From contig PUNB01000262.1 of NCBI GenBank assembly GCA_003552565.1, positions 1 through 28,707 on the forward strand: a stretch of 28,707 nucleotides of DNA. The letters run 5' to 3'. The notes beneath the pieces are model-generated. The model did not search any database, was not told the DNA's origin, and worked only from the letters and a program-made list of their open reading frames with translations. The DNA comes from Lentisphaerota bacterium. Its GTDB lineage: Bacteria; Verrucomicrobiota; Lentisphaeria; Oligosphaerales; PUNB01. Position numbers and translations under genes: made by a program. How positions within the stretch are numbered: position 1 is the stretch's first letter; every line of letters begins with the position of its first letter. Positions 316 through 28,707 of this stretch are shown here, piece after piece.

Positions 316-381
316 AGTTGATTAGCCTGAGACCGTCCGGAAAGGGGTATTGTGTGTTTTGAGTTCAACTTTCTCCCGAAT

Positions 382-416
382 CCGCCTGAGGCGGATTAGA
401 GACAAGGTTTTTTCAG
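382..416 (+). terminator. palindrome 'AATCCGCCTGAGGCGGATT' + GACAAGG + T6, terminator-like element downstream of the PCD gene
   Basis: Perfect 8-bp stem with a 3-nt loop, followed 11 nt later by TTTTTT. The same element recurs at 14779-14815. Confidence 0.45.
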
Positions 417-420
417 CACA

Positions 421-655
421 AATTCGGCACACTACCCCTTTCCGGATGCCCTCTAGCTCGAGGTTATGCGAAAAGGGTTTTGTGGAGCTCACAAGCTCGA
501 AAGTGACTGTGCGTTCCACGGCCAATTGGATTAAGGCGAATGATTATGACGAAAGATTAGGGAAAAACGGGTGCGTCCCTTAATCTTTTGCCCTAATCTT
601 TCGCCTTAATCTCGTTTCCGACCCTTTTTCGCGGAGGATCTAGCTCCGCCGGGAA
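421..655 (+). repeat. structured ~230-bp interspersed repeat, copy L (motif A - hairpin core - motif A)
   Basis: About 135 bp of core is roughly 90% identical to the reverse complement of 2640-2790. The core itself is an imperfect ~90-nt hairpin ('GATTAAGGCGAA..GATTAGGG' / 'CCCTTAATC..TTCGCCTTAATC'). It is flanked by motif A at 435-458 and 622-645. Confidence 0.8.
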
Positions 656-761
656 CTATTTGAATACTTTGATCTGATTCCGTTAAGATTCCGTTAAATT
701 GGTAACCCAAAAAAGCGTTTTGATCGCTGATTCAACATTGTAAGAAAGTTTAGCGATTCAT

Positions 762-1955
762 ATGAAAAGATATGTGGTGCTGGCCGCGGCGACTGTGTTT
801 CAGCTGTGTCTGGGCGGTGTTTACGCCTGGAGTTATTTTCTTTCGCATTTAGAAAGAGCTTTCGGGATTCCCGAGGAAAGGTCTCAGAACATATTCGGGG
901 TATGTATTTTCGTTTTTACTCTTTGTATGATTCTTGGCGGCCGTCTGCAGCATCGCTGGGGACCTCGCCGAGTGGCTTTGCTTGGAGCTTTGCTATACGC
1001 CGGCGGTTATTTGGGCGCCGGTTTCTTTGCTTCTCGGTTCTGGCATTTTCTACTTTTCAAAGGGATAATCGAAGGTGCGGGAATCGGTTTCGGTTATGTA
1101 TGTCCCTTAATAACCGCTCTGAAATGGTTTCCTAATCGCAAAGGGCTGGTTACCGGCTTGGTGGTCGGCGGTTTCGGCGGCGGCGCGGTGGTTCTTTCTT
1201 CGGCGGCGCATGCTTTGCTGGCCGACGGTCGTGAGTTATCTCAGGCGTTTGTCATACTGGGATTCGGATATCTTGTTATTGCGGGCGGGGCGGCGGCGCT
1301 GTTGTCCTGGCCCAAAGAGGAGATGCGGACGCAAAAAGGAGATTCAACTGCTAAGCAGTCGGAAATGGCTTTGTCCGTCATGTTTAAGGATAGTCGTTTC
1401 CGAAGCCTGGTCATGGCGATGTTCGCCGGCACTTTCGGGGGATTGATGATTATTGGATCTCTGGCCGCGATTGGACGCGAAGGCGGGGTGGCGGAAGGTT
1501 ACGCGGTGCTGGCTATCAGTATTTTCGCGGTCGGAAACAGTCTTGGCCGGCTGATATGGGGAATGTTGATTGATCGTTTTGGCAAGATGACCATTCCGCT
1601 TTCGCTGCTCTTTCTGGCTTTGGCGTTGCTGGTGTTGCTGTTTACTCGAACCTCGAGCCCAGTCCTGTTTGTGGCCGCCGCCGGCTTAACCGGCTTCGGT
1701 TTCGGCGCCTGTTTTGTCCTCTATGCCGCCCAGACCGCGGTTTTCTTTGGCGCCGACTTGGTGGGGGTGGTTTATCCGATTGTCTTTGTCGTCGGTTATG
1801 GTATTCCGGGGATTGTCGGTCCGGGTGTCGGCGGATTTTTGCGTTACATGGCGGGAAATTACAGTTTGCCGATCGTTTTCGCCGCGCTCTTGGCCGCTGT
1901 CGGCGGGATGTTTTCGGTGTTTAATTTCTCCCGAGCCGCAAAGCAGGGCGGATAA
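762..1955 (+). CDS. MFS transporter, oxalate/formate antiporter (OFA)-like
   Basis: 397 aa with about 12 predicted TM helices. N-terminus 'MKRYVVLAAATVFQLCLGGVYAWSYF' and Gly-rich helices are typical of OFA-family MFS. Confidence 0.8.
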   Translation: MKRYVVLAAATVFQLCLGGVYAWSYFLSHLERAFGIPEERSQNIFGVCIFVFTLCMILGGRLQHRWGPRRVALLGALLYAGGYLGAGFFASRFWHFLLFKGIIEGAGIGFGYVCPLITALKWFPNRKGLVTGLVVGGFGGGAVVLSSAAHALLADGRELSQAFVILGFGYLVIAGGAAALLSWPKEEMRTQKGDSTAKQSEMALSVMFKDSRFRSLVMAMFAGTFGGLMIIGSLAAIGREGGVAEGYAVLAISIFAVGNSLGRLIWGMLIDRFGKMTIPLSLLFLALALLVLLFTRTSSPVLFVAAAGLTGFGFGACFVLYAAQTAVFFGADLVGVVYPIVFVVGYGIPGIVGPGVGGFLRYMAGNYSLPIVFAALLAAVGGMFSVFNFSRAAKQGG

Positions 1956-2070
1956 GAGTGTGGTGAGGGACTTTGGAGAACCGTCTTATTCTGATTAATT
2001 AAGGTTGGTTTGACAATCGCTTCCGCCGGGCGGGGCGGTGTTTGCTGAAAATTTAATGAAGGTAGAATAA

Positions 2071-2565
2071 ATGCGTAAATCCAGACAAGAGAAGACTGAG
2101 CCTCCATCCACTGAAATCAGGCATGTGCATAAGACCATGCTTGATTATATACCTTTCTGGCAGGGTATGGGTTTTGTACTGATGATTGTACTGGTTTGGG
2201 CGGTTTATCTTTTTGAACTGCCGGAGTATTTTTTTTCGAGGGAAACCGAGACGGACTGGTTCGGCCTCAGCCTGATCACGGCGGTTATTATTGTCATGGG
2301 GTTTGTGATTGTCGCTCACTCGTATGTTCAGCAGCGGCGAATCTTACAGGGGTTGCTGCGCGTCTGTTCCTATTGCAAAAAGGTCAAGATAAAACAGAGT
2401 GAAGAATGGATGCAGCTGGAATATTATGTGTCAGAAAATTCACTGGCGGATTTCACTCATGGTATTTGTCCCGATTGCCATCAGCGGGTGATGCGGGAAC
2501 TGGGGAAGGATAAGGAAGAGAGCGAAGGCGCCGTCGAATCCTCGGAAGCGGAAGAAGGAAATTGA
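2071..2565 (+). CDS. small membrane protein (2 TM) with C-terminal CxxC...CPxC zinc-ribbon-like domain
   Basis: 164 aa. Two hydrophobic helices (MGFVLMIVLVWAVYLF, LITAVIIVMGFVIVA), then 'CSYCKKVKIKQSEEWMQLEYYVSENSLADFTHGICPDCHQ', then an acidic tail. The start follows the AT-rich 'aaggtagaataaATG'. Confidence 0.55.
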   Translation: MRKSRQEKTEPPSTEIRHVHKTMLDYIPFWQGMGFVLMIVLVWAVYLFELPEYFFSRETETDWFGLSLITAVIIVMGFVIVAHSYVQQRRILQGLLRVCSYCKKVKIKQSEEWMQLEYYVSENSLADFTHGICPDCHQRVMRELGKDKEESEGAVESSEAEEGN

Positions 2566-2604
2566 GACTCTTTTTTGATTTATTTGGAGCTTGCGATTTT
2601 GAAT

Positions 2605-2820
2605 TCGGCATATTTAGCTCGACCCGTCCGTAAAGGGTTCGGAAACGAGATTAAGGCGAAAGATTAGGGCAAAAGATTAAGGGGCGCACCCGTTTTTCCC
2701 TAAGCTTTCGTCATAATCTTTCGCTTTAATCTAATTGGTCGTAAAACGCACAGCCACTTTCGAGCTTGTGGCGTCCAGTTCAAAATCTTCAACGAACCCT
2801 TTCCGGACGGTCTAGCTCAG
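2605..2820 (-). repeat. structured ~230-bp interspersed repeat, copy R (inverted relative to 421-655)
   Basis: The reverse complement of 2640-2790 aligns to 476-612. Motif A occurs at 2616-2637 (minus orientation) and 2797-2817 (plus orientation, overlapping the TGA stop of the 2817-3896 gene). Confidence 0.8.
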
Positions 2821-3896: not shown

Positions 3897-4082
3897 GGGC
3901 GTTTTTCTAGAGGTTATGCGGAAAGGTTGATGTTCCGATTTGTGTTGGTTTAACCATTGTCTAGAACCTTGTCTCGCACCTTGTCGGGAACAAAAAACTG
4001 AATCGAAAAAAGTGCGCGACAAAGTGTTGTAACACCCGATTCTCTCTCGGGGTGCCCGGCGCGTCGCGCCACGAACCGGCGC

Positions 4083-7852: not shown

Positions 7853-7895
7853 TTTTCGTTTTCTCCTTAGTTAGACCTCGTTCGGAAAGTGTTTT

Positions 7896-8063
7896 ATGCC
7901 CCCGCCGGGCTTGTCCCGGCGGAGCAGTAGATTGGTTTTCAGAAATTTGCAGACACCCCCCTCATTTCCGCGGCATGACGGCGAGCCGACATGCCGCGGA
8001 AAAAAAAGCTTGAACATTCTTTTATTTGCAATCTTTCGCTCCGCCGGGACAAGCCCGGCGGGG
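7896..8063. repeat. triad of GC-rich hairpins in the ribH / PLD-gene divergent intergenic region
   Basis: 'CCGCCGGGCTTGTCCCGGCGG' at 7902-7922 and its inverted partner 'CCGCCGGGACAAGCCCGGCGG' at 8041-8061 flank a central perfect hairpin 'CCGCGGCATG-N12-CATGCCGCGG' (7969-8000) followed by A8. Confidence 0.6.
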
Positions 8064-8176
8064 GCGTATGAACTTTAAGCCTCCGGAGATACCTTTTCGC
8101 ATACCCTCTAGCTATGATTACCCTAGTGCCAGAATTGTGGCGGTTAATATAGCGCGGGAATTAACTTTTTAAACTA

Positions 8177-10984: not shown

Positions 10985-11319
10985 GTTTCGAGTCGGTATG
11001 GAATACAGGTTTCGGGTTTCAGAAAGGCTGTTTTGTACTTTCCTAGTCTCGCACCTTGTCTCGCACTTAGTCTGAAAAATGAGGAATCGACAGAAAACCA
11101 GACAAGGTGCGAGACAAAGTTTTATTTTTTTGTGCGTGTAGAGACTGCAAACACCTTTTCGCAGAGGGTCTAGCTATTAATAAGGTGTCAACTTTTAGTC
11201 AGGACTTGACACACCTGGACACTGAAACCTGAAACCACGAAGCCTCACATAAGTGAGTTTTATAATGAGATATTCGGCCGGCATTCGGACTTGGGAAACT
11301 AAAAAAAAGAAGTTATTTT

Positions 11320-12153: not shown

Positions 12154-12471
12154 ACACCTGACCGGGGCAGACGTGATTCGGCCGGGGCGTAATGTGTCAG
12201 TCATAGGAGCACGAATTTCCCACCTTTCACTGAAGCATTACTCCGAAACTGTCCATGCGCTTGCAATTACACGGATGCCAATTACTATTTCTGTTCCGGG
12301 GTATCTGGCGCCTTGCGCCGGGGGCGGGGCTTATCTGAAGCACAGTTTTGAATATTGAATGGTGAATATTGAACTTGGAATTTTTACCTGAAACCTGACA
12401 CCAGAAACCAAGCTGTTACCCATTCGTTTTGAGCAAGAGTCGCGTTTCATTCCAAACCAGCGGTGTAAAAA

Positions 12472-12678: not shown

Positions 12679-12917
12679 TTCACGAGCCAAGATTACCGTC
12701 TGGCCACTTGCAGACTAAATAGAAAAAAAATAACATAACATGACAAAAATAAAACCACTGCGCGGACGGATTGTTCCGTCCGAATAAAATTCAAACCTTG
12801 TCCAGAACCTGAATCTATTTGGACTTTGGTTCAGGAGAAGGTTAGTTCCGTCATCCTTTGGAACGACTGTGTAATTGTTTCTAAACCGAAAACCCAAAAA
12901 CGCCAAGGAGCATAAAT

Positions 12918-13274
12918 ATGAGCACTGGTTATCATGAAGCAGGTTTAAGTCAGAAAACTCAGAATATCCATCGGGCCATCGCCAGTTTGCAGGAAGAACT
13001 GGAAGCGGTGGACTGGTATAATCAGCGCGCTGATGTGACTGAGGACGCGGAATTGAAAGCGGTTCTTGAACACAACCGCAATGAAGAGATTGAGCACGCC
13101 GGTATGCTGCTTGAATATCTCCGTCGCAATATGAGCGAGTTTGACGAGCAATTGTCGACCTACCTGTTTTCCACTCTGCCGATCACCCAGATCGAAGAGG
13201 CTGAAGAGGGCGGGGAAAATGACGCTCCCGGCGACGTCTCCAGCTCTGGCTTGGGCATTGGGAAAATGGATTAG
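12918..13274 (+). CDS. encapsulated ferritin-like protein (EncFtn/Flp) cargo with C-terminal encapsulin targeting peptide
   Basis: 'EELEAVDWYNQRADVTEDAELKAVLEHNRNEEIEHAGMLLEYLRR' is the EncFtn di-iron motif region. The Gly-rich linker ends in 'SSGLGIGKMD', resembling the family-1 cargo-loading peptide (GSLGIGxL). Confidence 0.8.
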   Translation: MSTGYHEAGLSQKTQNIHRAIASLQEELEAVDWYNQRADVTEDAELKAVLEHNRNEEIEHAGMLLEYLRRNMSEFDEQLSTYLFSTLPITQIEEAEEGGENDAPGDVSSSGLGIGKMD

Positions 13275-13346
13275 CTCAGTTCTTGATGCCTTGGTAGTGA
13301 ACTGATTTATTGCTTTGTATTATCAAAAAACATAAGGAAATGAAAG

Positions 13347-14153
13347 ATGGATATTTTAAAAAGATCACTGGCTCCAATCACTGACAGCGCCTGGAATGAG
13401 ATTGATCAGGAAGCGGCGCGCGTTTTGAGAGGCAATCTGGCTTTTCGCGGCCTGGTGGACTTCGTCGGACCCGAGGGCTGGGAGAAGGCGGCGGTCAATC
13501 TGGGCACCATGAAAGAAGGCGGCAAGCAGCTGGTGAAAGGAGTTAACTGGGGATTACGTCAGGTTCAGCCTTTGACCGAAATCAGAGTGCCCTTTTCTCT
13601 TGATATATGGGAGTTGGACAACTTGGAACGCGGCGCCCAGGCACCCGATCTGGACGCGGTCACGCAGGCGGCTCAACAAGGAGCGGTCTTTGAGGAAACG
13701 GCTGTTCTCAACGGTTTTTCCGAGGCTCAGATCACCGGCATCGGTCAGGCGGCCGGCAAACCGATCGGCATGTCCAAGAACCCAGCCGATTGCCTCGCCG
13801 CTTTTGAAGAAGGCATCGTGGCCTTGCAGAAGCAGGGAATCAACGGTCCATACCAGCTGGTTCTGGGAACGGAAGCCTATCAAATGATAATGGCCGGTGA
13901 TGATAAAGGTTATCCTCTGCACAAGCGCGTACAGGAATTGACCGGAACCGACATCAAATGGAGTCCGGCAGTGATGCAGGCGGGGATTATTTTAAGCTGT
14001 CGCGGCGGTGATTATGTCTTCACCTGCGGCCAGGATTTTTCCATCGGCTATCATTCACATTCAACCAAGGCGGTTAATCTGTTTTTAACCGAGTCTTTTA
14101 CTTTCCAGGTTCTGGAACCCGCGGCGGCGGTCAGTATATCCTGGAAAAAGTGA
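13347..14153 (+). CDS. family-1 encapsulin nanocompartment shell protein (linocin M18-like, HK97 fold)
   Basis: Collinear similarity to the T. maritima encapsulin: 'MDILKRSLAPITDSAWNEID', 'WGLRQVQPLTEIRVPFSLDIWELDNLERG', 'GPYQLVLGTEAYQ', 'GYPLHKRVQELTG', 'GQDFSIGYHSHSTKAVNLFLTESFTFQVLEP'. Confidence 0.9.
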   Translation: MDILKRSLAPITDSAWNEIDQEAARVLRGNLAFRGLVDFVGPEGWEKAAVNLGTMKEGGKQLVKGVNWGLRQVQPLTEIRVPFSLDIWELDNLERGAQAPDLDAVTQAAQQGAVFEETAVLNGFSEAQITGIGQAAGKPIGMSKNPADCLAAFEEGIVALQKQGINGPYQLVLGTEAYQMIMAGDDKGYPLHKRVQELTGTDIKWSPAVMQAGIILSCRGGDYVFTCGQDFSIGYHSHSTKAVNLFLTESFTFQVLEPAAAVSISWKK

Positions 14154-14725: not shown

Positions 14726-14976
14726 GAATATATATCCTTGTCTCGAACCTTGTCTCGAACCTTGTCCCGAACCTTGTCCCTAATCCGCCTCAGGCGGATT
14801 AGGGACAAGGTTTTTTATGCCGCACCAGTCTCTCGCTCGGAGTATCAGGCTCCTCGAGCCAGCGGTCAGGCTTATGTGAAACTCAGCCTTGTCTACCTCA
14901 GGCGGATCTGGTTTTCTTTCGATTCCTCATTTTTCGGACTAAGTGCGAGACAAGGTGCGAGACAAGGTGAGCACAA
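14726..14976. repeat. composite structured element: 4x tandem 12-mer 'CCTTGTCTCGAA', a 12-bp-stem palindrome with T6, and inverted 12-mer copies at the far end
   Basis: 14736-14783 holds the tandem 12-mers. 14779-14815 is 'CCCTAATCCGCC-TCAG-GGCGGATTAGGG ACAAGGTTTTTT'. 14946-14970 is 'GTGCGAGACAAGGTGCGAGACAAGG', the inverse of the 12-mer. A 'GGCTTATGTGAAACTCAGCC' box lies at 14859-14878. Confidence 0.7.
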
Positions 14977-15007
14977 AATCAGGTCTCAACCCCTTTCCGG
15001 ACGGGCT

Positions 15008-15940
15008 CTATCTAAGGCTGTTTGCAGTGTTTTTCGAGGCGCGCGCCGCACCATGCCAGGTCCACACATTGCCGCTGAATTCTTTTTCAGCTTTTAACGC
15101 CGCGGCGGCTGCTTGTTCTTCAGAGTTGAACACGGCGAAAACCGTCGGGCCGCTGCCGGAAACATGGCTTGCCATGGAATCTTGATTCCGGAGGAAGTCA
15201 AAAAACATTTGTAATAGAGGAATTTTCTGCAAAAGCGGTTCGTTAAAACGAGTTCGAGTATTTCGGGCAATTTTTTCTAGATCCCCCTCCCACATTGCTT
15301 TTAATAAAGGTATGGAGGAGATTTCCATTAGGTCATCGAAACTTCCGCGGATTCGCTGATAAGCCCAGCCGGCGGAAACGGGGAGGCCGCCGGGGTTTAA
15401 CAATAGAATCGGAATAGAGCAGTTAAGTGTAACCGGATCCAGTTTATCGCCTATGCCGCGGGCTAAGGAGGGAAGGGGATTCAGGAAGAAGGGCGCGTCA
15501 GCTCCGAGTTGGCGGGCCATTTGATGGCGTCGGCTGTCACCAAGCGTGATTCCGGTTATCTCCTCCAGAGCATTCAGCACGGCGGCGCCGTCTGAACTGC
15601 CGCCGCCCAGGCCTGCGGCCACGGGTATTTTTTTATCGATGTGTATATGCCAGGCCGGGGGGATTTTTGCTTCTTCCGCAAAAGCAATTGCGGCCTGGTA
15701 AACCAAATTGGAGCTGTCAACTGGAACCTGCGGGTGGCTACAGGTGATTTCAGGCTCCCTGCCGTGGATAGGGGTTACAGTTATAGTATCACATAGATCC
15801 GGCAGCGGCAGAAAAACAGACTCCAACTCATGCATCCCGTCGGCTCTTTTGCCGCGAATGGCCAGGAACAGATTTATCTTCGCCGGTGTCTTAACGATTA
15901 CACTACGGATGGCAGCTGCTGAATGTTCTGTTTTTAACAT
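15008..15940 (-). CDS. ispE: 4-diphosphocytidyl-2-C-methyl-D-erythritol kinase
   Basis: 'PAKINLFLAIRGKRADGMHELESVF' and 'KIPVAAGLGGGSSDGAAVL' are GHMP-kinase/IspE motifs. The stop overlaps motif A (14990-15014). Confidence 0.85.
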   Translation of the reverse strand: MLKTEHSAAAIRSVIVKTPAKINLFLAIRGKRADGMHELESVFLPLPDLCDTITVTPIHGREPEITCSHPQVPVDSSNLVYQAAIAFAEEAKIPPAWHIHIDKKIPVAAGLGGGSSDGAAVLNALEEITGITLGDSRRHQMARQLGADAPFFLNPLPSLARGIGDKLDPVTLNCSIPILLLNPGGLPVSAGWAYQRIRGSFDDLMEISSIPLLKAMWEGDLEKIARNTRTRFNEPLLQKIPLLQMFFDFLRNQDSMASHVSGSGPTVFAVFNSEEQAAAAALKAEKEFSGNVWTWHGAARASKNTANSLR

Positions 15941-16724: not shown

Positions 16725-16874
16725 CGCTTGTGTGAGACTTTGTGGTTTCAGGTTTCAGTGTTCAGATGTCAGACAACAGAAACCATGCGAGACAAACTGT
16801 AGTAACGCATCCCATGGGACGCTTGTGAGTTTTTTTTAATTAATTTGCCTGTAACATGAAAGGATAAATGCTTA

Positions 16875-17519: not shown

Positions 17520-17532
17520 GAAAATATTGAGT

Positions 17533-17600
17533 TACCGCGCGGACGTATTATTACGTCCGGTATATTGGGCTACCGCGCGGACGTATTATTACGTCCGGTA
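17533..17600. repeat. two tandem 30-bp palindromic units 'TACCGCGCGGACGTATTATTACGTCCGGTA' separated by 8 bp
   Basis: Unit 1 at 17533-17562 and unit 2 at 17571-17600 are identical. Each contains the perfect palindrome CGGACGTA-ATTAT-TACGTCCG. They lie between the purO stop and the hisD start. Confidence 0.85.
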
Positions 17601-19838: not shown

Positions 19839-19904
19839 TGGAAGATTAAGGCTTTTTCTCAAAACGAATGAGTTGCTAATAGTTTTTCTTAGATTTTATG
19901 GGCA

Positions 19905-20190
19905 CCAGCTTGGTTTTAGATCTCAGGTTTCAGGTGTCAGGACTTGACAAGGCGGATCGTGCAGTGACCGATAAAGATAGTGGTTTAAGCGTAACCAAGT
20001 AAGTGTGAGACGAAGGGTGGGATGAAGAGGAAGCCGAAGTGTTTAGAAGAGAGGCCTGAAGCCCATGACACTTAACCCCCCACTTAATCGTACACTTGAG
20101 CCCACTCTTAGTTGGTTACGCTTAAGCAACCTGCTTGGGTACGAAATTCTGAAACCTGAAACCCGAAACCTGAACTCTGTCACGAACAAT
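19905..20190. repeat. structured intergenic element bounded by inverted motif-C heptamer runs, with an internal imperfect 25-bp inverted repeat
   Basis: Motif C '...CAGCTTGGTTTTAGATCTCAGGTTTCAGGTGTCAGGACTTGACAAGG' at 19905-19951. Its inverted counterpart 'CTGAAACCTGAAACCCGAAACCTGAAC' at 20148-20174. IR arms 19985-20009 vs 20104-20130 (TTAAGCGTAACCAA...). Confidence 0.65.
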
Positions 20191-22517: not shown

Positions 22518-22870
22518 GGTTTCGTATTGTGGCTATAAAAACCTGGTGTCTCATACAAGCCCAGCCGCCGGCGCAAAGCGCCTGATACCCCGGATGGAAA
22601 CAGCGGCTAACGAAGAACCGTGACCCTATCCGTGTGTATCCGTGTTAATCCGTGGTGAAAAAAGGCAGAAAATAAAACCACGGATGGACACAGATTAACA
22701 CTGATATAAAATGGTTCGTTTCTAGTGGGAAAAACGGAGAACAAAACGACCGTGTTTCACATAAGCCTGATCGCCGGCGCGATGCACGCCGAATACCCTG
22801 AGGGTGAGACTGTTGCGGCATAAAAAACCTTGTCTCGAACCTTGTCCAGTTTTTTTTGACTTTTTGTGCC

Positions 22871-27554: not shown

Positions 27555-27779
27555 AGTCCTAGCTCACTCTAAGTTTTTTATGGCTTTTTCTTAAAACAAA
27601 TGTTTATTAATAAAAGATTCTTTTCTGAAATTTCATCGGTAACAGCTTGGTTTCAGGTTTCTGGTGTCAGGGTATTAGTTAAATCCCAAATCTAAAATCA
27701 CAAATCTCATTGATGGAATATGGTTCGGGACAAAGTTGAACCCAGAGACACGCGAAACACCTTTTCGGATACCCTCAGG

Positions 27780-28707
27780 CTAGTATTCCAAGTCAATCGG
27801 CTCTTCGAGTCTTGCCCGGATAGTGAACGTTCTCAGATTAAACACCTGATCCGACACTTCGTATTCATCAAAATCGACCCGATCCTCAACGAAAACAGGC
27901 AATCTTCTCAACCTTGACAAAAGTACCTGTTCCGGACCGCGGCCGTTATCCGGAACCTCTTCAGGCGCCTCAATATCCTCGAGCTCATCGGCCGCCTCTT
28001 CGAGTTCTTCCCGCGCTAACTCTTCAAGCTCTTCATCCCCAACGTCTTGTCCGTCAATTCTAACTCCCGGCGGAAGTGAAAGACTGTGGCCGCGAACTGC
28101 TATGCCGGTGATTCTGCCTCTCGGGCCGCTTTCTTCCAGTTCAATCTCATCAGGATCTCTTTCTTCATCCTCGCGCCGCGGTTCATCGTCACGATCACGC
28201 CTCCTGCTGAAAGGACTGGCGGGAGCGTCGCGCTCGGGCCGGCGTTCCTCTTCTTCCTCTCTCAAATCCTCAAAAACCGGCCTGAATTCAGTGAACCACA
28301 ACCTTCCGGGTATTTCCGCTTCCACGGAATTAACCACCCGCACCCAATCTTCGCGTCTTCTCAGCAGGCGGTTCAATCGCTGGTACTGATCCTCGACATT
28401 GCTGATCTCGCTCTCCACCCCGCTCAATTCGCTCTCTTTCTCTTCCAGCTCTTGGCGCTGTTCCCGGAATTGTTCCACCACCGGCTCATAAACCTGAGCC
28501 ATGTACATATTGCTGAACAAAGAGAAGGTCAACAGCAAAAGTACGCACAAAGCCGCCGCTCCCAGCCATGTCTTCTTCTGCTCAAAAGCCACTAGTCGAC
28601 GTATGCGCCGCGGCAGGAGATTAACCTCAACCGGACAGGCCCCTCGATAACGCAGCGCCAAACCAACCGCCTGACTGAACCCATGGGCCTCGTTTTCCAA
28701 TCTTTCA
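27780..28707 (-). CDS. PilN-like pilus assembly protein, possibly fused to an upstream PilM-like domain. The 5' end is outside the window.
   Basis: The ORF is open to the window end. 'VNLLPRRIRRLVAFEQKKTWLGAAALCVLLLLTF' is a PilN N-terminus (INLLP motif + TM), then a coiled coil. The preceding 'GFSQAVGLALRY' resembles a PilM C-terminus. Long acidic/Arg tail. Confidence 0.55.
   Translation of the reverse strand, partial: ERLENEAHGFSQAVGLALRYRGACPVEVNLLPRRIRRLVAFEQKKTWLGAAALCVLLLLTFSLFSNMYMAQVYEPVVEQFREQRQELEEKESELSGVESEISNVEDQYQRLNRLLRRREDWVRVVNSVEAEIPGRLWFTEFRPVFEDLREEEEERRPERDAPASPFSRRRDRDDEPRREDEERDPDEIELEESGPRGRITGIAVRGHSLSLPPGVRIDGQDVGDEELEELAREELEEAADELEDIEAPEEVPDNGRGPEQVLLSRLRRLPVFVEDRVDFDEYEVSDQVFNLRTFTIRARLEEPIDLEY

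What the first reader, a model, noticed from the sequence alone, without database searches (positions are those of the whole stretch)
421..2820. Two inverted copies of a ~230-bp hairpin-core repeat bracket an MFS-transporter + zinc-ribbon membrane protein cassette
Sequence 476-612 and the reverse complement of 2640-2790 are about 90% identical over roughly 135 bp. The core itself folds as a long imperfect hairpin built from GATTAAGG/GATTAGGG half-sites. Each copy carries motif A (CCTTTYCG...CTCTAGCT) at both ends (435-458, 622-645; 2616-2637, 2797-2817). The 2.0 kb between the copies contains exactly two genes: the OFA-type MFS transporter and the CxxC...CPxC membrane protein. No transposase is present, so this is not a classical IS composite. 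Long inverted repeats flanking a gene pair are the substrate for site-specific or homologous inversion, and the geometry is also MITE-like (terminal motif + structured core). Either a cassette of possibly variable orientation or a pair of small structured RNAs would be worth knowing about.
Basis: seen in the sequence. Interest (0 to 1): 0.6.

Follow-up and report, generated by a model that had tools for sequence, protein, structure and literature searches.

The report
Dispersed hairpin repeat flanking two genes
The two inverted repeats are real, but they are two copies of a non-coding hairpin element scattered through many PVC-group bacterial genomes; longer versions of that element elsewhere enclose a small four-helix-bundle protein gene, and nothing suggests the transporter gene pair is a switchable cassette.

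Summary
Window 483-631 and 2629-2777 are 149-nt inverted copies at 90% identity. With gaps, the similarity runs about 180-190 nt (460-638 and 2621-2810).

Each copy has an 83-nt hairpin core built from 13-nt units (GATTARGG plus CRAAA). Each is bounded by inverted ends (motif A) and flanked by the same direct repeat, TAGCTC.

The core is not local. An exact-pattern scan found more than 107 stretches in at least 33 species-level MAGs (Kiritimatiellae, Victivallales, Lentisphaeria), almost all intergenic and in every gene configuration. Only the hairpin is conserved between genomes.

The helix shows no compensatory covariation. Mirrored units are preferentially mismatched (G·T or A·C).

In other genomes the same arrays enclose a PF05635 gene (23S-rRNA-intervening-sequence/Avd-like, four-helix bundle). 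This held for 7 of 7 homologues chosen by protein alone. A second protein subfamily carries a different repeat unit.

The window copies therefore look like ORF-less miniatures of an IVS-like element.

The MFS + zinc-ribbon pair is conserved in relatives without these repeats. The contig holds no recombinase or transposase, and no Rfam family matches. Inversion was not testable here.

The parts
322..458 (.). Neighbouring motif-A-bounded unit: A' at 322-346, terminator-like hairpin 367-409 followed by a T run, and A at 437-458. It abuts copy 1 and shares the TAGCTC junction with it.
   Evidence: Inverted pair 324-354/428-458 and palindrome 367-387/389-409. The hairpin is 89% identical to 14770-14816. 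Motif hits.
452..459 (+). Direct repeat TCTAGCTC on the left flank of copy 1 (TAGCTC = 454-459).
   Evidence: Read from the sequence. The same 8-mer recurs at 639-646.
460..480 (+). Left inverted end of copy 1 (motif A': GAGGTTATGCGAAAAGGGTTT).
   Evidence: Alignment of the two copies. Motif family.
481..528 (+). Spacer module shared only with copy 2. It was not found in any other genome.
   Evidence: blastn of the window against 107 loci matches only 528-633 and 2634-2739. The metagenome scan gave only a chance coding hit.
529..611 (+). Hairpin core of copy 1. Arms 529-562 and 578-611, each three 13-nt units (GATTARGG + 5 nt); loop 563-577.
   Evidence: 76-87% identical to hairpins in other genomes. 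Fold.
612..638 (+). Right inverted end of copy 1 (motif A: ...CCCTTTTTCGCGGAGGA).
639..646 (+). Direct repeat TCTAGCTC on the right flank of copy 1.
762..1955 (+). MFS transporter gene (397 aa). A passenger lying between the copies, not part of the element.
   Evidence: PF07690 E=1e-28. NCBIfam L-lactate MFS 284 bits and OFA family 181 bits, both below cut-off. Orthologue pair in L108/L109/L111 lacks these repeats.
2071..2565 (+). 164-aa membrane protein with a C-terminal CxxC...CPxC zinc-ribbon-like domain. Also a passenger.
   Evidence: No Pfam or NCBIfam hit. Homologues at 49-55% identity lie next to MFS genes.
2613..2620 (+). Direct repeat TTTAGCTC flanking copy 2 (TAGCTC = 2615-2620).
2621..2648 (-). 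Inverted end of copy 2 (GACCCGTCCGTAAAGGGTTCGG...). It pairs with 2793-2810.
   Evidence: Inverted pair 2624-2641/2793-2810, 94%. The whole unit folds as one hairpin closed by these ends.
2649..2731 (-). Hairpin core of copy 2, inverted relative to copy 1.
2732..2792 (-). Spacer module of copy 2, homologous to 481-528 with a 14-nt insertion.
2793..2810 (-). Other inverted end of copy 2 (CGAACCCTTTCCGGACGG).
2811..2818 (+). Direct repeat TCTAGCTC flanking copy 2. It overlaps the TGA stop (2817-2819, minus strand) of the glycosyltransferase-like gene.

Best explanation
The finding is two oppositely oriented copies of a non-coding, palindromic, dispersed repeat element of about 180-190 bp. The copies sit in two consecutive intergenic regions of an ordinary housekeeping chromosome segment.

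Each copy has three parts:
- inverted ends (motif A);
- a spacer specific to this genome;
- an 83-nt hairpin core whose arms are three 13-nt units (GATTARGG plus a 5-nt spacer).

Shown: the core is the ORF-less form of an element found across Kiritimatiellae and Lentisphaeria-type genomes. In the longer form, the same inverted arrays enclose a gene for a two-domain four-helix-bundle protein of family PF05635/TIGR02436. That is the family of proteins encoded in large 23S rRNA intervening sequences, and it resembles DGR Avd.

Inferred:
- The short hairpins arose from the gene-carrying form by loss of the ORF, and they spread or persist as its satellites.
- The four-helix-bundle protein recognises the repeat units.
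- When transcribed, the roughly 34-bp stem would be a double-stranded RNA substrate (RNase III type), as with rRNA intervening sequences. It could therefore affect processing or stability of neighbouring mRNAs.

On this reading, the bracketing of the MFS + zinc-ribbon genes is a by-product of two insertions or duplications. It is not a functional cassette.
For: Dispersal:
Up to 17 elements occur in the retrieved blocks of one MAG.
- 71 of 72 hairpins are intergenic, in all gene configurations.
- Isolated 8-mers are not enriched: 22 seen against 30 expected.

Only the hairpin is shared between genomes. Loops and flanks form genome-specific subfamilies with several copies per genome.

Insertion-like ends:
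- Inverted ends on both window copies.
- TAGCTC on both sides of both window copies.
- A related motif-A-bounded element in another genome (L044) is flanked by TAGTCAG on both sides. Its sister copy L097 has different flanks.

Link to a gene:
- The arms enclose PF05635 genes in L041, L050 and L087.
- 7 of 7 homologues chosen by protein alone (P0027, P0033, P0067, P0097, P0071, P0085, P0108; 42-83% identity) are flanked by 13-14-nt arrays with a GATTARG core. Units cluster at the gene.
- A second PF05635 subfamily (L001, L026) sits in arms made of a different unit, GTGTACGAGTAC. That unit also has an ORF-less version (L009).
- ORF-containing L050/L114 and ORF-less L007/L070 share an outer flank module.

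Not a cassette:
- Relatives keep MFS + zinc-ribbon without these repeats.
- The contig has no recombinase or transposase.
Against: - No PF05635 gene lies on this contig (tblastn). The rest of the source genome is not available, so a cognate protein in this organism is unproven.
- The mechanism of spread is unknown, and four-helix-bundle proteins are not known transposases.
- The direct repeat is the same (TAGCTC) at all four window ends. It could therefore be part of the element or a strict target rather than a duplication.
- Evidence for a true duplication rests mainly on one element in another genome (L044).
- Two copies 2 kb apart that are each other's closest relatives could reflect a local duplication tied to the gene pair rather than independent insertion.
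- Transcription and RNase III cleavage were not tested.
Confidence: 0.72

Rival explanations
1. Invertible cassette. The two roughly 190-bp inverted repeats recombine, by homologous or site-specific recombination, and flip the MFS + zinc-ribbon segment as a phase-variation switch.
For: The inverted geometry is real, at 90% identity. It includes a perfectly identical run of about 45 nt, read from the alignment. That is long enough for RecA-type recombination, on general knowledge.
Against: No recombinase gene is on the contig. The repeat is a dispersed family present in all gene contexts. Other modules form similar inverted pairs around unrelated genes. The upstream region 647-761 would invert together with the genes, so expression need not change. 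The gene pair is conserved without repeats in relatives.
Confidence: 0.05
2. Host-selected cis-acting RNA element. The hairpins act in transcripts as processing, stabilising or insulating structures between genes. Their stop codons in all three frames help end translation.
For: The predicted structure is very stable. The position is intergenic. The unit ends abut or overlap stop codons of four genes. The 13-nt period places TAA/TAG in all three frames on both strands (read from the sequence). Known rRNA intervening sequences with similar stems are RNase III substrates (PMC4990558).
Against: No compensatory covariation: 92.3% paired against 93.6% in shuffles. No orientation bias towards the neighbouring genes. 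No U-tract terminator follows the hairpin. No Rfam family matches. The sequence of the units, not their pairing, is what is conserved.
Confidence: 0.25
3. Arrays of protein-binding sites on DNA. The 13-nt units are iteron-like sites for the PF05635 protein or another factor, serving regulation or chromosome organisation rather than mobility.
For: The 8-mer is conserved across genomes of 51-70% GC while loops and flanks are free to change. The unit sequence co-varies with the protein subfamily. Pairing is not what is conserved.
Against: No binding data exist. A 13-bp period is off the helical repeat. This reading does not explain the inverted ends and direct repeats of the window units. PF05635 proteins have no demonstrated sequence-specific DNA binding (own knowledge; Avd binds nucleic acid non-specifically).
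Confidence: 0.25
4. Classical REP/REPIN element mobilised by a RAYT tyrosine transposase.
For: It is extragenic, palindromic and multi-copy, and mirrored halves differ. REP dimers likewise tend to be heterodimers (PMC3733652).
Against: There is no GTAG or CGTC tag. The stem is 34 bp with internal 13-nt periodicity, whereas REP stems are 5-13 bp. No recurrent transposase-like ORF was found near elements in 720 kb of loci.
Confidence: 0.04
5. A pair of independent small-RNA genes.
For: Stable fold.
Against: No Rfam match above noise: the best is a generic hairpin hit at 28.6 bits against a gathering score of 91. No promoter- or terminator-like signals bracket the units. No covariation. Random orientation relative to genes.
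Confidence: 0.04

Closest known systems
23S rRNA intervening sequences (IVS) with or without an S23p/PF05635 ORF (Leptospira, Coxiella, Salmonella)
   Same: Both have terminal inverted repeats forming a long, nearly perfect stem (28 bp in Coxiella). Both come in ORF-containing and ORF-less forms. The ORF belongs to the same protein family (PF05635). Both have a sporadic, selfish-looking distribution (PMC4990558; PMC10053308).
   Different: These elements lie between protein-coding genes, not in 23S rRNA helices. The arms are built of tandem 12-14-nt units with variable copy number. There are many copies per genome. The protein is usually a two-domain (245-aa) form. RNase III excision is untested.
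MITEs (non-autonomous miniature inverted-repeat elements, e.g. Correia/NEMIS, Nezha)
   Same: They are small, non-coding, multi-copy and intergenic, with inverted ends and flanking direct repeats. They look like deletion derivatives of a longer gene-carrying form.
   Different: The gene in the longer form is not a recognisable transposase. No parent IS with matching ends was found. The duplication is not proven for the window copies.
REP/BIME and REPIN elements
   Same: They are extragenic palindromes organised in mosaics with other motifs. Mirrored halves are preferentially different, as in REP heterodimers.
   Different: No GTAG or CGTC tag, a much longer stem, internal tandem periodicity, and no RAYT seen.
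BOX elements of Streptococcus pneumoniae (own knowledge)
   Same: Modular structure with a variable number of an internal tandem unit, and a strongly folding transcript.
   Different: No sequence relation. The BOX internal unit is 45 nt. BOX has no associated gene-carrying form.

Membership tests
MITE | Small (<~600 bp) and without coding capacity | tested here: met
   The units are about 180-190 bp. Only chance ORFs cross them.
MITE | Multiple dispersed copies in a genome | tested here: inconclusive
   The hairpin core is multi-copy in other genomes, e.g. at least 17 elements in the retrieved blocks of one MAG. For this organism only the 28.7-kb contig is available, and it holds 2 copies.
MITE | Terminal inverted repeats | tested here: met
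   2624-2641/2793-2810 pair at 94%. Copy 1 ends share GA...GCGAAAAGGGT. The motif occurs 8 times against 0.055 expected.
MITE | Target-site duplication that differs between insertions | tested here: inconclusive
   TAGCTC flanks both ends of both window copies, so the sequence is identical everywhere. L044 has TAGTCAG on both sides. The unit at 7868-8113 has TAGTTA on one side and TAGCTA on the other.
MITE | Autonomous partner encoding a transposase with the same ends | tested here: not met
   No transposase is on the contig. No recurrent one was found near elements in 720 kb. The longer forms carry a PF05635 gene instead.
23S rRNA intervening sequence (IVS) | Located within the 23S rRNA gene (helix 9, 25 or 45) | tested here: not met
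   Both copies lie between protein-coding genes. There is no rRNA on the contig.
23S rRNA intervening sequence (IVS) | Terminal inverted repeats forming a long stem | tested here: met
   34-nt arms, about 85% paired in the window and 92% across 36 elements.
23S rRNA intervening sequence (IVS) | Optional internal ORF of the PF05635 family | tested here: met
   Met for the long forms in other genomes. The window copies are the ORF-less form.
23S rRNA intervening sequence (IVS) | Excision from the transcript by RNase III | not testable with these tools
   Needs RNA end-mapping or an in vitro cleavage assay.
REP / REPIN | 20-40-nt palindrome with a GTAG or CGTC tag at one end | tested here: not met
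   The hairpin is 83 nt and bounded by AGA...TCT, with no tag. Definition taken from PMC3733652.
REP / REPIN | Associated RAYT (Y1 transposase) gene flanked by the repeats | tested here: inconclusive
   None seen among 588 ORFs of the retrieved loci, judged by clustering only. Whole genomes were not searched.
Invertible DNA switch (inverton) | Inverted repeats flanking the segment | tested here: met
Invertible DNA switch (inverton) | Dedicated site-specific recombinase nearby | tested here: not met
   Pfam scans of all large ORFs on the contig.
Invertible DNA switch (inverton) | Both orientations present in the population | not testable with these tools
   No reads are available.
Curated RNA family (Rfam 15) | Score at or above a family's gathering threshold | tested here: not met
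   Only tRNA-Val passes on the contig. The best hit in the region is mir-4788 at 28.6 bits against a threshold of 91.

The most novel reading that the evidence does not exclude
A previously undescribed class of hairpin-bounded elements exists in PVC bacteria. In it, a stand-alone PF05635 (IVS-protein/Avd-like) four-helix-bundle protein specifically recognises the 12-14-nt tandem units that form the inverted arms around its own gene. The many ORF-less hairpins, including the two in this window, would be its non-autonomous satellites. The rule that mirrored units form G·T or A·C rather than Watson-Crick pairs would be part of that recognition, or of hairpin tolerance. This would give a first function to stand-alone PF05635 proteins. 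It would also provide a model for the origin of rRNA intervening sequences.
Probability: 0.3. Interest if true: 0.75.

Novelty: new variant of a known kind. Interest (0 to 1): 0.5.

Why it matters
For this locus the result is deflationary. The transporter pair is not a mobile or switchable cassette, and annotators should treat the flanks as dispersed repeats.

The wider pattern has more value. One 8-mer-based hairpin is conserved in non-coding DNA of dozens of species whose genomes range from 51 to 70% GC. The same hairpin is tied to a family of small proteins that are abundant in genomes but have no assigned function outside DGRs.

The origin and mobility of bacterial rRNA intervening sequences have been open since about 1990. 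A chromosomal, multi-copy relative with both gene-carrying and miniature forms makes protein-repeat recognition and RNase III processing directly testable.

These repeats also fragment MAG assemblies and can be mistaken for CRISPR-like or regulatory features.

Tried and rejected
1. Looked for the source genome. The MFS and zinc-ribbon proteins are not on record in the contig index. The window is the whole 28,707-bp NCBI contig.

2. Scanned metagenomes with the genome-specific spacer (CAAGCTCGAAAGTGNCTGTGCG). The only hit was a chance match in a coding region. Copy number of the full 190-bp unit therefore stays unknown.

3. Searched viral contigs, plasmids and phages. Nothing was found.

4. Tried to infer a transcribed strand from G·T versus A·C mismatches. 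The hairpin has a polarity, but it does not follow neighbouring gene orientation: in tandem contexts, 5 same against 14 opposite, using crude ORF calls.

5. I first thought the A'-to-A units were co-oriented with transcription. I rejected this because the reverse complement of an A'...A unit is again A'...A, so the ends carry no strand information.

6. Slipped-register pairing (a 13-nt offset) explains the commonest mismatch pattern but not the second one (AGG|TTC). Rejected as the general rule.

7. DNA-uptake-sequence idea: isolated 8-mers are not enriched.

8. An apparent conserved N-terminus (MANILQER...) next to one subfamily turned out to be short non-coding ORFs of 18-25 aa.

9. Literature searches for the motif, or for repeats in Kiritimatiellae and Lentisphaerae, found no description.
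Full report
**Observation.** The inverted repeat is real. The repeat finder reports arms 483-631 and 2629-2777, 149 nt, 90% complementary and 1997 nt apart. A gapped alignment extends the homology to about 460-638 versus 2621-2810 with one 14-nt indel, and similarity ends there.

Each copy contains a hairpin: arms 529-562/578-611 and 2648-2682/2698-2732 with 15-nt loops. The arms are three 13-nt units, GATTARGG plus a 5-nt spacer. The two-unit pattern with up to 3 mismatches occurs 8 times in the window, all in the two copies, against 0.01 expected. Folding z-scores are -7.2 and -5.1.

Between the copies lie exactly two genes:
- an MFS transporter; PF07690 matches, and the best NCBIfam hits are the L-lactate and oxalate/formate families, both below cut-off;
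- a 164-aa membrane protein with a CxxC...CPxC tail and no family hit.

**Anatomy of the unit.** Each copy is bounded by an inverted pair of motif A:
- copy 1: GAGGTTATGCGAAAAGGG at 460-480 and CCCTTTTTCGCGGAGGA at 620-638;
- copy 2: 2621-2641 and 2793-2810, 94% complementary.

Immediately outside, both copies carry the same direct repeat on both sides: TCTAGCTC at 452-459 and 639-646, TTTAGCTC at 2613-2620 and TCTAGCTC at 2811-2818.

That unit encloses a terminator-like hairpin.

Motif A occurs 8 times on the contig against 0.055 expected. It bounds other hairpin modules at 7868-8113 and at about 10990-11175, and it ends at 15013 and 27781. In four cases it abuts or overlaps a stop codon.

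An A'...A unit reads the same on both strands, so these ends give no strand information.

**Context on the contig.** The contig is an ordinary housekeeping segment. It encodes PCD, TauE, tRNA-Val, FtsY, NusB, RibH, MreC, EncFtn plus encapsulin, Dtd, a GHMP kinase, PurO, HisD, fumarase, GlmM and a secretin. It has no transposase or recombinase.

Its intergenic regions are full of other hairpins made of short tandem units. A second long inverted pair, 11031-11102/14907-14978, brackets another gene group.

**The core elsewhere.** They come from at least 33 assemblies, nearly all labelled Kiritimatiellae, Victivallales, Lentisphaeria, Verrucomicrobia or PVC group. Genome GC ranges from 51 to 70%.

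- blastn of the whole window against these loci matches only 528-633 and 2634-2739, at 76-87% identity. The hairpin alone is shared. The spacer is specific to this genome, and motif A almost so.
- 71 of 72 hairpins are intergenic, in tandem, convergent and divergent gene contexts alike.
- Isolated units are not enriched.
- Loops and flanks fall into subfamilies with several copies within one genome.
- In one other genome, two copies (L097, L044) carry the hairpin between motif-A-like ends. L044 is flanked by TAGTCAG on both sides, while L097 has other flanks.
- No copy was found in viral contigs, plasmids or phages.

**Structure versus sequence.** On an alignment of 36 hairpins the 34 pairs are 92.3% paired. 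Shuffling partners among sequences gives 93.6%, and covariation is below the shuffles. Pairing as such is therefore not what evolves under constraint.

The A/G position of each 8-mer is anti-correlated with its mirror. There are 65 G·T or A·C cells against 17 Watson-Crick (Fisher p = 5e-8). The cells are not independent, but the trend holds in 15 of 17 assemblies and in two different unit patterns. A 13-nt slip explains only one of the two patterns.

Di Nocera et al. noted an unexplained preference for heterodimers in REP dimers, and they noted that long perfect hairpins are harmful (PMC3733652). Tolerance of the palindrome is one possible reason for the mismatches. Recognition of wobble geometry is another. 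I cannot decide between them.

No Rfam family matches.

**The link to a gene.** In L041 the two arms are 486 nt apart and enclose a 150-aa ORF that matches PF05635 (23S_rRNA_IVP; 42 bits, cut-off 33.8). L050 and L087 show the same arrangement with two-domain relatives.

Those three loci had been selected by the repeat, so I tested the reverse direction. I took homologues of the protein (124 at E ≤ 1e-10, mostly 245 aa and named 'four helix bundle protein') and fetched contexts for seven of them, at 42-83% identity. All seven are flanked by inverted arrays of 13-14-nt units with a GATTARG core. The units cluster at the gene. Spacers differ between lineages (CGAAA, TGAAT, TTTGGC, TAGAA), but the core persists.

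A second PF05635 subfamily (L001, L026) lies between arms of a different unit, GTGTACGAGTAC. That unit also has an ORF-less version in L009.

ORF-containing (L050, L114) and ORF-less (L007, L070) elements share a module outside the arm. Several ORF-less loops begin like the leader of the ORF form (TCAAGAG...). This is the pattern expected of deletion derivatives.

**Comparison with what is known.** PF05635 resembles DGR Avd and includes ORFs of large 23S rRNA intervening sequences (PMC10053308).

The Coxiella IVS is a 428-nt element with such an ORF. [quoted passage not shown] Its origin and mobility are unresolved (PMC4990558).

PF05635 genes have also been noticed wedged between cas genes (PMC3936711).

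The element here behaves like an IVS outside rRNA, with arms made of tandem units and with many miniature copies. It fails the defining location of an IVS. It lacks the tag and RAYT of REPs. It lacks the transposase partner of a MITE. I therefore file it as a new variant, not as a member of any of these. I found no description of it in six literature searches.

**The cassette idea.** Homologues of the zinc-ribbon protein (49-55% identity) sit next to MFS genes in three relatives without GATTARGG repeats. In L109 the MFS gene alone is bracketed by inverted copies of a different module.

Inverted pairs of intergenic modules around genes thus recur with different repeats and different genes.

The two window copies share a perfect run of about 45 nt, so rare homologous inversion is possible. 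There is no recombinase, however, and the presumed promoter region would invert with the genes.

**Limits.**
- The rest of this organism's genome is unavailable. Its copy number and its cognate protein are unknown.
- Gene calls in the loci were crude longest-ORF calls.
- The genome scan was truncated.
- Mobility is inferred from repeats and flanks, not from empty sites.
- Transcription and cleavage are untested.

**Verdict.** The most likely nature is an ORF-less, IVS-like hairpin element of a PVC-wide family linked to PF05635 genes.

Noticed in passing
window 3945-3991, 11032-11124, 14726-14784 with 14936-14968, 22818-22852: Hairpins and arrays built from a 12-nt unit, CCTTGTCTCG(A/C)A. The architecture matches the GATTARGG element but the unit differs. 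No copies were found in the retrieved loci of other genomes.
   Followed up: partly
window 11211-11253, 12386-12436, 16727-16769, 19884-19940, 20140-20175, 27621-27671: Modules with GGTTTCAG-type short tandem units shared among six intergenic regions, in both orientations. Some lie next to a TTGACA-like box.
   Followed up: no
window 11031-11102 and 14907-14978: A second long inverted pair (72 nt, 92%). It brackets an unknown gene, a Trm112-like ORF, EncFtn plus encapsulin, and Dtd. It also starts with a motif-A-like end.
   Followed up: partly
window 17524-17599 and 12747-12784: REP-like short palindrome GCGCGGACGTATTATTACGTCCGG, present as a tandem pair after purO with a relative elsewhere on the contig.
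   Followed up: no
window, whole contig: CTAG is under-represented: 24 seen against about 53 expected. Roughly ten of the 24 lie in the ends of the repeat units. Unit ends overlap the stop codons at 2817-2819, 15008-15010 and 27780-27782.
   Followed up: partly
L109 1-100 and 1630-1720: In a relative, the MFS orthologue alone is bracketed by inverted copies of a different module: a GACTTCGTGAC hairpin plus a terminator-like hairpin with a T run.
   Followed up: partly
L120 and L121 1100-2100: A PF05635 gene with a complete short hairpin on each side sits between two ORFs of more than 2500 aa. It may be splitting one giant TPR gene.
   Followed up: no
window 2071-2565: The C-terminal CxxC...CPxC domain of the small membrane protein recurs at the C-termini of PAS-domain and response-regulator proteins (E about 1e-8 to 1e-11). 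This suggests a shared signalling or output module.
   Followed up: no
window 12918-14153: An EncFtn-like cargo gene is followed by an encapsulin shell gene (Linocin_M18).
   Followed up: no
L004, L005, L002, L087: A few hairpin copies lie on contigs binned as Pseudomonadales, Brocadiaceae, Clostridia and Pirellulaceae MAGs. This could be mis-binning of PVC contigs or a wider distribution.
   Followed up: no
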